This document shows positions 42,001 through 45,000 of a stretch of 64,000 nucleotides of DNA, piece after piece. The DNA lies in assembly GCA_034780895.1 (NCBI GenBank), contig JAUZTB010000002.1, forward strand, positions 61,666,101-61,730,100, in the 5' to 3' direction. The DNA is from Rhynchobatus australiae (Eukaryota). Position 1 is the stretch's first letter. The number at the start of each line of letters is the position of its first letter. The position numbers were made by a program.

Positions 42001-45000
42001 AGGTGTGACCCTTAAATTTTAGACCATACTACCTATTCTTAGACAGCCCAATCAAAGAATTTGTCGTCTATTCCTGCATTGTCTAAAAATTTCAATTAAA
42101 TAACACCTTTCCCTTCCACATTCCAGCAAACAAAATCCTAGTGTGTGCAATCTCTCCCAATGGTTTAACATTTGAATCCATGTATTATTCTGACCATCCA
42201 ATTCTCTGATCATTCAAAGGCCAACATATCATGCTTGTGATGAGGTGTAATTGAAGTACAGCTGTCATCTAACCAGGTCTATGTATGATTGTAGCATGAT
42301 TTTTAATTCCAAGGTCAACATTCCATGTGCCTTTTTGATTATTTTCACTACTTGTGTATAGCAGTTTAACAATCCACATACATCGTATGCCAAGTCTTTT
42401 GAACTTGCTCTGTTCCACTGTCTAGAAAATTGGTCGGAGCATCAGCAGATGGAATTTAATCCTGACAAGTGCGAGATGATGTATTTTGGGAAGTCAAATA
42501 GGGGTAGCACATAAACAATAATTGGTAGGGCTTTAAGGAATGTTGATGAACAGAGGAACTTTGGGGTTCAAGTCCATCATTTTCTGAAACTGGCAACATG
42601 TGTAAATAGGGTGGTGAAAAATTTATATGGCATGCTTGTCTTCATTGGTCAGGGCTTAGAATATAAAAGATGGGAGGTTATGTTGCAATTTTACAAAACA
42701 TTGGTTAGACTGCACTTGGAGCATTGTGTTGCCACACTCTAGGAAGGAAGTGACTGCACTGGAGAACCTCATCAGGATGTTGACTGGATTGAGAATGGTT
42801 GATATGTGGAACAAGCGGCCAGGGAAGATAGTGGAATCAGACACAATTACTACATTTAGAGGCACTTAGAATAAGCAAAGCATAGAAGGATACAGATCCA
42901 ATGCAGGCAAATGGGATTAGTGTAACTGGGCAGAAAGGTCTGTGTGGACGGAGTGGGCCGAATGGCCTGTTTCTGTGCTGTATGAATCAATGGCTCTTTG
43001 ACTCTAAATTACAAGAGATGTGAGCTAGTAATGATGCAACAAGCGATAAGGGCATATGGGAGTGAGAGAGCAGGCCATGCAACTGTACATCCTTAACTTC
43101 CAGTGTGTTTGACTTCCGGTGACGTGCTAGTTGACAAGCAGCACTCACTACACTTTCAATAAAATCATCAGCAATCTGCAAAAGCATCTGCATGCAAGAG
43201 AGAAAAAAGTATTGATTAAAGGCCCTTCATTTAGAGATATAATACAAGCATAATCATTTTGGGCTTCATTTAGATCACTCATGTTCAGAATGAAGTATCT
43301 TTTGCAATGAACCAATTTGCTTAAAAGTTTCCTGACACTCTGGAGGATCAAAACTTATGTGTCAGGATCAAAAACCATTCTTATTTTATACTTGATTTAC
43401 AGAATATAAAGTGTTACTCTTCCTTTCTTGAGAGCAAATTAAACAGGCAGGCAATGGTATTACAGCACCCCTCCACTGCAGTGCTCAAACTAAAACAGTG
43501 AAGAGTTAGTGTAGCAACAAACAATCTGCTGGAAGAACTCAGTGGGTTGAGCAGCATCTGTGGGAGGAAGGGANNNNNNNNNNNNNNNNNNNNNNNNNNN
43601 NNNNNNNNNNNNNNNNNNNNNNNNNNNNNNNNNNNNNNNNNNNNNNNNNNNNNNNNNNNNNNNNNNNNNNNNNAAAGATTTGTTTTAAAAATATGCAACA
43701 ATTATAGATCTCCACACTTATTGCAGTTAATCTCAATGTCACAGTAACACTTTCAATATCTCATAATAATTAAATCAAATCAATACTTATGAAATCTTTA
43801 AGTGGGGATGTAGATTTGGTGAGTTAACTTAAATATTCAGACAAGTTTATTCCTTGTCTATAGTGCAAACACAGGAACTTTATGCCACTTGAGGTATTTG
43901 ATTTGTGAACCAGACGGTAAGAATCATTTTCATGAGGTGAAGTGAAGAATAATGTTTCATCAATATTAATAACTGCAAATTCTGTTTAAGTTGCTGCTGT
44001 ATTTGAATCCAAGTAGTATATTGCACCATCTGCCTGTTAATTTTACAGCAAATTTTGGGTCAGTGTGATAAATTAAAATTTAGGTTTACTCAGATATCAA
44101 CTGGGGCAAAAATAACAGCCAAACGAATCAGATAAGAAACATACGTAACATATATAAATTGTATTTAAGAAAAATATGTTATCAATGGAAATAGAATTGA
44201 AATTTCTATTTTAATAAAGGTGTCATTAACATAGCAAAAGCAAGTGACATACAAGCAATGCATGGGTACCAGGAAAGACAAATATATTGATGGCTTCTCC
44301 TTCAAGATGGCCAAAGCTTTTACATCAGCCTCGTTTGCATTTGCTGTTAAATTTGATGCTGACATGAACCTTTTAGTTATATTGTTAAATTTTACATAAA
44401 GAGGAATAAAACATTCTTTTGCCTGAAGAATACAGATTGTGATGAAGTATATTCCAGAAAAAAATATTACATTGGACCATGTCAGCAATATTCAACTTTT
44501 TGAAGCAAAGAAACTGCAAGTGCTGGAAATCCAAAACATGCTGGAAACACTCAACGGGTAAAGCAGCATCAGTCGGGAGAAAAACTGAGTCAATGCCTTA
44601 GGCCAAGGTCCCTCCATCAGACTGGACATAATGCACTTTCACACTTTTCCAGTGCTGATAGAAGATCCAGGACATGAAGTGTCAATGCTCTTCCCTTCTT
44701 TATGATTCCCTTCTTGGCCCGTTGAATGCTTCAGGCATTTTTTGTTCTCCTTTGAACTATTTGGAGCAGGAATCTGATGAATTTCATAAGAAGAGCAACA
44801 TGGAAGCATGACATTTAGTCTGCCTATCGCATAACAGTGTTCATCTTTCCTGGGAGCAGAAGTTCAAATTTTTTGCTTGCTAATTACAAAACTTTTTAAG
44901 TAGTCTGCCTATACAATCACTGATCTAACCTACTCTAATAAGCTATCATCGATTCTGTTTCAATAGCTAAGTATCATCCTTGGCCTATCGGCAATATTCT

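What the first reader, a model, noticed from the sequence alone, without database searches (positions are those of the whole stretch)
43077..43215. Orphan TAF12 exon with intact splice acceptor inside the LDAH intron
Seen: 37 stop-free codons almost identical to the TAF12 histone-fold region. They begin right after a strong polypyrimidine tract plus CAG, are co-oriented with LDAH, and are cut off after QLH without a donor. Knowledge, from memory: TAF12 has an exon starting at MLLQ and ending a few nt after QLH. Inference: because intron sequence is retained, this is not an ordinary processed pseudogene. It is more likely a DNA-level capture, a repair-templated insertion or a pre-mRNA-derived insertion. 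The sequence above 43188 may be further TAF12 intron. High protein identity implies a recent event or constraint.
Basis: partly seen in the sequence, partly recalled or inferred. Interest (0 to 1): 0.72.

Follow-up and report, generated by a model that had tools for sequence, protein, structure and literature searches.

The report
Stray TAF12 exon fragment in LDAH intron
A short, dead-looking copy of one exon of the transcription factor gene TAF12, still attached to the end of its own intron, sits inside a long intron of the LDAH gene of a cartilaginous fish; it is a real but ordinary kind of genomic debris.

Summary
Window 43077-43187 (minus strand) is 37 stop-free codons of the TAF12 histone fold (Pfam PF03847, E 6.5e-18). 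They match human TAF12 at 35/37 and four shark TAF12 proteins at 37/37.

The codons start right after a 14-nt pyrimidine run plus CAG. That combination occurs only twice on the two strands of the window. TAF12 isoforms and genomic read-through ORFs show the real exon starts at MLLQ and ends 4 nt after QLH, at G|GTAAG. The copy therefore keeps its acceptor but lacks the last 4 nt and the donor.

No other TAF12 exon is in the sequenced part of the window. The piece lies on the same strand as LDAH, in the 40.4-kb intron between two consecutive LDAH exons. Spliced into LDAH it would stop after six codons.

Best reading: a short, non-functional copy templated from unspliced TAF12 sequence (DNA or pre-mRNA), not a processed pseudogene.

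Main caveat: it sits on a 1.6-kb contig between two 100-N gaps, so its placement rests on scaffolding alone. No eukaryotic genome collection was at hand, so the parent locus, copy number and orthologous introns stayed unchecked. Ordinary; low interest.

The parts
43077..43187 (-). TAF12-derived exon fragment: 37 codons MLLQ...VQLH, which is 111 of the 115 nt of the real exon
   Evidence: Translation. Pfam PF03847 E 6.5e-18. 35/37 to human TAF12. 37/37 to 4 shark TAF12 proteins. The only TAF12 hit in the window below E 0.3. True exon end 4 nt further on, from read-through ORFs.
43188..43209 (-). Retained 3' end of the TAF12 intron: 14-nt pyrimidine run, then GCATGCAG (acceptor)
   Evidence: Sequence. 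One of only 2 such sites on both strands of the window. In-frame reading FFLSCMQ aligns with FLYPHMQ of the catshark alternative-acceptor isoform P0004.
43210..43509 (-). Single-copy sequence upstream of the acceptor. It may be further TAF12 intron or native LDAH intron; the 5' edge of the copy lies somewhere in here.
   Evidence: No other copy in the window. No comparator available, so its origin is untested.
43001..43076 (-). 76 nt of unassigned sequence just after the break. It has no TAF12 similarity, no GT at the junction and no poly(A).
   Evidence: Sequence. No repeat match.
42490..43000 (-). Copy of a dispersed repeat with an internal deletion, about 67% identical to the copy at 475-1248 (+)
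   Evidence: blastn and MAFFT alignment.
43510..43573 (.). Dispersed repeat running into the gap; 4 further copies in the window
   Evidence: blastn hits at 24847-24908, 44539-44582, 14590-14626 and 13865-13901.
43574..43673 (.). 100-N run on the upstream (minus-strand) side of the contig that holds the fragment
   Evidence: N scan. Not filled; contents unknown.
41847..41946 (.). 100-N run on the downstream (minus-strand) side of that contig
   Evidence: N scan. Not filled; contents unknown.
62593..62727 (-). LDAH exon (GNPG...PPEGMEMME), donor AAG|GTATTG, ends in phase 1
   Evidence: Pfam PF10230 E 2.3e-12. tblastn with Pristis, Mobula, Scyliorhinus and Narcine LDAH. Sequence.
22056..22216 (-). 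The next LDAH exon (DIELEDIFG...GHSIG...ELQ), acceptor ttttttttcttgcag, donor CAG|GTGAAG
   Evidence: Pfam PF10230 E 9.4e-16. tblastn, 95% identity to Pristis pectinata LDAH. Sequence.

Best explanation
This is a short, non-functional copy of part of the TAF12 gene. It holds the last bases of one intron plus 111 of the 115 nt of the following histone-fold exon. The copy is at least about 130 nt and at most about 510 nt long.

It was copied from unspliced TAF12 sequence, either genomic DNA or pre-mRNA. It was pasted as a patch into a break in the 40-kb intron of LDAH in a cartilaginous fish, probably a ray or sawfish relative. By chance it has the same orientation as LDAH.

The copy has an acceptor but no donor, no neighbouring TAF12 exons and only 54% of the histone-fold domain. 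It cannot make TAF12 and is most likely neutral debris.

Shown: the identity, the limits of the real exon, the retained acceptor, the missing donor, the absence of other TAF12 exons in the sequenced window, and the LDAH context as assembled.

Inferred: the copy-and-paste mechanism, the template (DNA versus RNA, which I cannot separate), and the neutrality.
For: Identity and exon limits:
- Identity of the 37 codons.
- Real exon start at MLLQ, from exon-skipping isoforms P0059 and P0023 and from 4 named isoforms with intron-end extensions that all end in Q.
- Real exon end 4 nt after QLH, from 6 of 6 read-through ORFs reading QLH-L-G-K/E. The window reads CAT|GGCCTG instead.

Unspliced origin:
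- The acceptor is retained: one of only 2 comparable sites on both strands of the window.
- It shares ATG-CAG with the catshark TAF12 intron end, 1 of 9 comparators (P0004, P0024, P0055, P0096 named; P0239/P0027, P0240, P0241, P0242, P0017 unnamed).

A fragment, not a gene:
- Among 7 TAF12 queries the best other tblastn hit was E 0.31. The output was cut: full rows were seen for P0004 and P0049, most rows for P0037, part for P0093.
- No poly(A) after the 3' break.

Size and setting:
- The segment 43001-43509 is single-copy within the window and is bounded by dispersed repeats on both sides.
- Reverse-transcriptase remnants lie in the same intron, so an RT source existed.
- Templated patches that include intronic sequence, without target-site duplication or poly(A), are a described class (PMC5110952, passages read).

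No sign of use:
- The LDAH donor leaves phase 1, so inclusion would read G+AT GCT TTT GCA GAT TGC TGA = DAFADC-stop.
- None of the 120 listed TAF12 hits carries PF10230, and none of the 118 LDAH hits carries PF03847.
Against: - The fragment lies on a 1,627-nt contig between two 100-N runs. Its position in the LDAH intron therefore rests on scaffolding that I cannot inspect.
- The parent TAF12 locus of this species could not be read. The 5' edge of the copy, microhomology at the junctions and nucleotide divergence are all unknown.
- All 37 codons are unchanged. A neutral relic should decay, so either the copy is young, or rates are low, or it is constrained.
- N runs add up to about 5.4 kb of nominal length in the window and could hide other TAF12 exons.
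- No independent data set shows the same junction. Among 155 proteins of 43-139 aa none carries the tail after QLH; the highest coverage was 84% at 64% identity.
Confidence: 0.6

Rival explanations
1. The fragment is real but misplaced. The 1.6-kb contig belongs elsewhere, for example inside the TAF12 locus itself as a local partial duplication, and was wrongly scaffolded into the LDAH intron.
For: - The contig 41947-43573 is bounded by two 100-N runs, and the window has 23 N runs in all.
- Both contig ends carry or adjoin dispersed repeats, which commonly mislead scaffolders.
- No sequence overlap ties the contig to its neighbours.
- Duplicated blocks of this part of TAF12 appear in another annotation: Zosterops P0002 repeats MLLQ...AHKQ.
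Against: Nothing in the window contradicts the placement. The strand and the repeat content match the rest of the intron. There is no positive evidence of misjoining.
Confidence: 0.2
2. The fragment is cargo of a transposable element, a captured gene fragment present in many copies. It is not a one-off patch.
For: - It is flanked within 80 nt and 320 nt by dispersed repeats.
- Capture of exon-plus-intron fragments by DNA transposons is known from other vertebrates (recalled, not looked up here).
Against: - The two flanking repeats match different places in the window and do not look like two ends of one element.
- 43001-43509 has no second copy in the window.
- I saw no terminal inverted repeat around it above chance level. 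The best pair was 21 nt at 71% complementarity.
- Helitron-like ends were looked for only by eye.
Confidence: 0.08
3. Assembly chimera: the contig joins the true TAF12 exon to unrelated sequence at 43076/43077, and no orphan fragment exists in the animal.
For: This looks like a fragmentary short-read-style assembly. A repeat lies 76 nt from the junction.
Against: A repeat-mediated chimera would switch loci inside the repeat. That would leave the exon complete with its last 4 nt, its donor and some downstream intron. Here the break is 4 nt before the exon end and 76 nt outside the detectable repeat.
Confidence: 0.07
4. The fragment is used. It could be a poison or terminal exon of LDAH, or the coding part of a small histone-fold-like peptide (the ORF MQMLLQ...KSH, 66 aa).
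For: - The acceptor is intact and on the same strand as LDAH.
- All 37 codons are unchanged.
- The ORF stays open for 29 codons past the break.
- A cryptic GT sits at 43012, CTT|GTAATT, matching 6 of 9 consensus positions.
Against: - No downstream GT has a G at position -1 within 800 nt.
- Inclusion in LDAH gives a stop after 6 codons.
- Only positions 25-61 of the 68-position fold model are present.
- No database protein shows an LDAH-TAF12 fusion or the tail after QLH.
- Zero changes in 37 codons is still compatible with neutrality up to about 3.6% divergence (my arithmetic).
Confidence: 0.05

Closest known systems
Class 2 templated sequence insertions (DNA double-strand-break patches; TSIPs of Onozawa and Aplan, PMC5110952, passages read)
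   Same: A short insert copied from a distant transcribed locus. Templates may include intronic sequence. There is no poly(A) and no clear target-site duplication at the one junction that can be read. The donor gene is presumably kept.
   Different: That class was described in human cells and human polymorphisms. Here the host is a cartilaginous fish, and the event is seen only as assembled sequence. Junction microhomology, the empty site and the donor locus could not be examined. RNA versus DNA template is open.
Duplicated (non-processed) pseudogene fragment
   Same: Keeps intron-exon continuity of the parent gene and lacks the rest of the gene.
   Different: Very short (at most about 510 nt, with one partial exon). 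Such fragments are usually thought of as remnants of larger segmental duplications, and no larger duplicated block is visible here.
Processed pseudogene / LINE-mediated retrocopy (including class 1 TSIPs)
   Same: A copy of a housekeeping gene at an unrelated locus. Reverse-transcriptase remnants lie nearby.
   Different: The intron end is retained and the upstream exon is absent. No poly(A) and no polyadenylation signal lie at the 3' break. The only direct repeat spanning the junction (10 nt, 9/10) is at chance level.
Exon shuffling intermediates / exonisation of intronic inserts
   Same: A foreign exon with a working-looking acceptor sits in sense orientation inside a host intron.
   Different: It has no donor, its frame is incompatible with the LDAH phase (stop after 6 codons), and there is no evidence of transcription or splicing.

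Membership tests
TAF12 gene (TFIID_20kDa histone fold, PF03847) | Complete histone-fold domain | tested here: not met
   Only model positions 25-61 of 68 are present.
TAF12 gene (TFIID_20kDa histone fold, PF03847) | Neighbouring TAF12 exons and a donor site after the exon | tested here: not met
   tblastn with 7 TAF12 proteins gave no second hit below E 0.3 in the rows seen (the output was cut). The sequence after QLH is GGCCTG, where real genes read TTG G|GTAAG. N runs were not examined.
Processed pseudogene / LINE-mediated retrocopy | Spliced exon-exon junctions, no intron sequence | tested here: not met
   A pyrimidine run plus CAG precedes MLLQ where ...LDEDVEE would be expected.
Processed pseudogene / LINE-mediated retrocopy | Poly(A) tail at the 3' end, with a polyadenylation signal upstream | tested here: not met
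   No A run follows 43077. The nearest ATTAAA on that strand is at 42460, and there is no AATAAA.
Processed pseudogene / LINE-mediated retrocopy | Target-site duplication | tested here: inconclusive
   The only candidate is GCAGGC[C/A]ATG at 43070-43079 and 43447-43456. It is within chance expectation, and the 5' edge of the copy is unknown.
Class 2 templated sequence insertion (break-repair patch) | Short insert templated from a distant locus, which may be intronic or unspliced | tested here: met
   The TAF12-derived stretch is at least about 130 nt and is bounded to at most about 510 nt by repeats. It includes an intron end. That TAF12 lies elsewhere in this genome is assumed, not shown.
Class 2 templated sequence insertion (break-repair patch) | End-joining marks at both junctions (microhomology, untemplated bases), with the donor site intact | not testable with these tools
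   This needs the parent TAF12 locus and an empty orthologous site. No eukaryotic genome collection was available.
Transposon-captured gene fragment | Fragment lies between the two termini of one element and recurs with them | tested here: inconclusive
   The flanking repeats match different places, and the segment is single-copy in 58.6 kb. Genome-wide copy number is untested.
Nested gene in a host intron | Complete transcription unit inside the intron | tested here: not met
   There is one partial exon only and no Rfam match in the window.
LDAH (PF10230), as host gene | Two flanking exons that are consecutive in orthologues, with canonical splice sites | tested here: met
   Pfam. tblastn shows residues ...MEMME| and |DIELED adjoin in 4 of 4 LDAH queries. 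AG and GT sites are present.

The most novel reading that the evidence does not exclude
The fragment is a germ-line-fixed patch templated from nascent, unspliced TAF12 pre-mRNA. In that reading the upstream intron was still present and the RNA 3' end lay 4 nt short of the donor. This would be RNA-templated break repair recorded in a cartilaginous fish. Because it landed in sense orientation with a live acceptor inside LDAH, it would also be a caught-in-the-act intermediate of exon shuffling or a latent poison exon.
Probability: 0.12. Interest if true: 0.45.

Novelty: new member of a known kind. Interest (0 to 1): 0.2.

Why it matters
If the junctions are real, the piece is a clean, datable example of a short insertion copied from unspliced gene sequence in a slowly evolving vertebrate genome. 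It could help separate RNA-templated from DNA-templated break repair once the parent locus is read.

For annotation it is a trap. A gene finder may call a spurious TAF12-like exon or a chimeric LDAH isoform here.

Beyond that it changes nothing known about TAF12 or LDAH.

Tried and rejected
- **Other TAF12 exons in the window.** tblastn with 7 proteins at E up to 100 found only noise besides the one exon.
- **A 12-nt match AGACAGTGGAAC (RQWN, the first codons of the next TAF12 exon) at 42412-42423 (-), after a ttttct run.** Rejected as chance. The window holds 186 exact 4-residue matches to the 169 TAF12 4-mers outside the exon, including ERQW twice elsewhere. A second weak match to the same residues at 42094-42201 (E 24-38) cannot be real together with the first.
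- **Target-site duplication or terminal inverted repeats around the fragment.** Only chance-level short repeats turned up.
- **An independent record of the QLH|GLLSHS junction in the protein collection.** None among 155 hits.
- **A fused LDAH-TAF12 annotation.** None among the listed hits.
- **Structured RNA.** 0 Rfam matches in the window.
- **Literature.** 'TAF12' with 'pseudogene' gave 29 papers, of which 10 listings were seen. 'TAF12' with 'LDAH' gave 4 papers, all gene lists by their listings. Nothing was relevant.
- **Donor scan.** Counting matches to MAG|GTRAGT (a recalled consensus) does not discriminate well. The real LDAH donors score 6 and 7 of 9, and the best cryptic sites score 6 of 9.

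Full report
**What is there.** On the minus strand, 43187 to 43077 reads [37 protein letters not shown]: 37 codons with no stop.
- It matches Pfam PF03847 (TFIID_20kDa, the TAF12 histone fold) at E 6.5e-18, covering model positions 25-61 of 68.
- It matches human TAF12 residues 83-119 at 35 of 37 (PDB chains).
- It matches the TAF12 proteins of Scyliorhinus torazame, Rhincodon typus, Hemiscyllium ocellatum and Chiloscyllium plagiosum at 37 of 37. Narcine bancroftii matches at 36 of 37.
- The three frog proteins fetched are also 37/37, so the identity does not point to a lineage.

**The limits of the real exon.**
- Two named isoforms skip the preceding exon and join directly to MLLQ: Narcine P0059 and Epinephelus P0023.
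- Four named isoforms carry in-frame extensions before MLLQ, all ending in Q (CAG). These are retained intron ends or upstream acceptors: P0004 ...FLYPHMQ, P0024 ...ISFQ, P0055 ...VLPQ and P0096 ...CLLQ.
- Six of six ORFs called on short genomic contigs run through the exon and read QLH-L-G-K or QLH-L-G-E. That is what TTG G|GTAAG gives, while the spliced protein reads QLH-L-E-R.
- So the exon starts at MLLQ and ends 4 nt after QLH, in phase 1.
- Those six proteins are unnamed. They carry KSNTLE where the human chain has KSSTLE.

**What the copy keeps and what it lacks.**
- Upstream of MLLQ the window reads CTTTTTTCTCTCTTGCATGCAG (43209-43188).
- On the two strands of the 58,648 non-N bases there are 39 pyrimidine runs of at least 14 nt. 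Only 2 are followed within 12 nt by a first AG that is CAG, and one of those is this site. The coincidence with the start of the similarity is therefore not chance.
- In frame this stretch reads FFLSCMQ, which tblastn aligns with FLYPHMQ of the catshark isoform. The final ATG-CAG is shared with that shark only, out of nine comparators.
- The upstream exon (...LDEDVEE) is absent.
- Downstream, similarity stops after the His codon. The window has GGCCTGCTC, so the last 4 nt of the exon and the donor are missing.
- No poly(A) follows.

**Is the rest of TAF12 nearby?**
- tblastn of seven TAF12 proteins against the window, at E up to 100, gave this one locus (E about 1e-19) and otherwise nothing better than E 0.31.
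- That output was cut. I saw all rows for P0004 and P0049, most rows for P0037 and part for P0093.
- A 12-nt match to RQWN, the first codons of the next exon, lies at 42412-42423 behind a short pyrimidine run. I rate it as chance, because the window holds 186 exact 4-residue matches to the 169 TAF12 4-mers outside the exon.
- The N runs (23 runs, about 5.4 kb nominal) were left as they are. What they hide is unknown.

**Host gene.**
- ORFs at 62531-62755 and 22023-22241 (minus strand) match Pfam PF10230, the lipid-droplet-associated hydrolase family.
- With LDAH of Pristis pectinata (95% and 94% identity), Mobula, Scyliorhinus and Narcine, the two exons are consecutive...PPEGMEMME| then |DIELEDIFG.
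- The splice sites are canonical. The exons are 62593-62727 and 22056-22216, and the intron is 22217-62592, about 40.4 kb.
- The TAF12 piece lies near the middle of that intron, on the same strand.
- The window is therefore from a cartilaginous fish, probably of the ray and sawfish lineage. It is not human.
- I searched the LDAH exons one at a time. The joined LDAH model was deliberately not built or searched.

**Immediate flanks.**
- On the minus strand, about 43000 to 42490 is a copy of a dispersed repeat. It is about 67% identical to the copy at 475-1248 and has an internal deletion.
- 43510-43573 is another repeat, with four more copies in the window, and it runs into a 100-N gap.
- Between them, 43001-43509 is single-copy in the window.
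- So the TAF12-derived stretch is at least about 130 nt and at most about 510 nt.
- Short direct and inverted repeats around it are at chance level. This includes a 10-nt 9/10 direct repeat that spans the 3' junction.
- Reverse-transcriptase remnants lie elsewhere in the intron, at 9536-10222 (-) and 29745-30311 (+).

**Assembly caveat.** The fragment sits on a 1,627-nt contig (41947-43573) between two 100-N runs.
- The break inside the exon is unlikely to be a repeat-mediated chimera. Such a chimera would switch inside the repeat and leave the exon whole. Here the break is 4 nt before the exon end and 76 nt outside the detectable repeat.
- The placement of the contig in the LDAH intron, however, rests on scaffolding that I cannot inspect.

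**Mechanism and function.**
- The best reading is a short templated patch. A piece of unspliced TAF12 sequence, DNA or pre-mRNA, was copied into a break in the LDAH intron.
- This fits the described class 2 templated sequence insertions, which may use intronic templates and lack target-site duplication and poly(A) (PMC5110952, passages read).
- I cannot separate an RNA template from a DNA template without the parent locus.
- Function is unlikely. The LDAH donor leaves phase 1, so inclusion would read DAFADC and then stop.
- No downstream GT within 800 nt has a G at position -1. The best candidates match 6 of 9 positions of a recalled consensus.
- Only 37 of the 68 fold positions are present.
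- None of the 120 listed TAF12 hits carries the LDAH domain, and none of the 118 LDAH hits carries the TAF12 domain. None of 155 short proteins carries the tail after QLH.
- Rfam finds nothing in the window.

**Recent or constrained?** With about 84 non-synonymous sites in 111 nt, the chance of seeing no change is exp(-84 d). It falls to 5% only at about 3.6% divergence (my arithmetic, not a tool result). An unchanged peptide is therefore compatible with a neutral copy of moderate age, all the more in a slowly evolving lineage (the slow rate is recalled). No constraint needs to be invoked, and none was tested.

**What stayed unchecked.**
- The parent TAF12 locus, the extent of co-copied intron, genome-wide copy number, read support for both junctions, the orthologous LDAH introns of related species, and transcription.
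- No eukaryotic genome, read or transcript collection was available.
The genome collection holds only bacteria and archaea, so it was not used.
- Paper supplements were not consulted.
- Searches for 'TAF12' with 'pseudogene' (29 papers, 10 listings seen) and 'TAF12' with 'LDAH' (4 listings seen) gave nothing on such a fragment.

**Verdict.** The feature is a new example of a known kind of genomic debris. Interest is low (0.2).

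Noticed in passing
window 9536-10222 (-) and 29745-30311 (+): Two open stretches match reverse transcriptase (Pfam RVT_1, E 4.1e-19 and 1.4e-12). They are retrotransposon remnants inside the LDAH intron.
   Followed up: partly
window 42412-42423 (-): AGACAGTGGAAC (RQWN) equals the first codons of the next TAF12 exon and follows a ttttct run, about 650 nt downstream of the fragment. 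I judged it chance from the background of 186 four-residue matches in the window.
   Followed up: yes
proteins P0002 (Zosterops borbonicus) and P0001 (unnamed; not fetched): The Zosterops TAF12 model repeats the block MLLQ...AHKQ twice in tandem. An unnamed 165-aa protein scores 136 bits against a 41-aa query, which also suggests two copies. Duplication of this part of TAF12, real or an assembly artefact, recurs in other records.
   Followed up: no
protein P0004 (Scyliorhinus torazame TAF12 isoform X1): A predicted alternative acceptor 21 nt upstream inserts seven residues (FLYPHMQ) into the histone fold. Similar in-frame extensions appear in pigeon, pupfish and woodchuck models.
   Followed up: no
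window 58185-58802 (+) and 58434-58958 (-): Two long ORFs (206 and 175 aa) overlap on opposite strands and have no Pfam match. They sit next to N runs, and the translations look like low-complexity or repeat-derived sequence.
   Followed up: partly
window 43070-43079 and 43447-43456 (+): The direct repeat GCAGGCCATG / GCAGGCAATG spans the 3' junction of the fragment. If it were a target-site duplication the insert would be 377 nt, but a match of this size is expected by chance.
   Followed up: partly
window, whole: There are 23 N runs. Twelve are exactly 100 N and the others range from 10 to 960 N. The low G+C values in the composition profile fall on the windows with long N runs. The assembly is highly fragmented, with contigs of about 1-5 kb.
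   Followed up: yes
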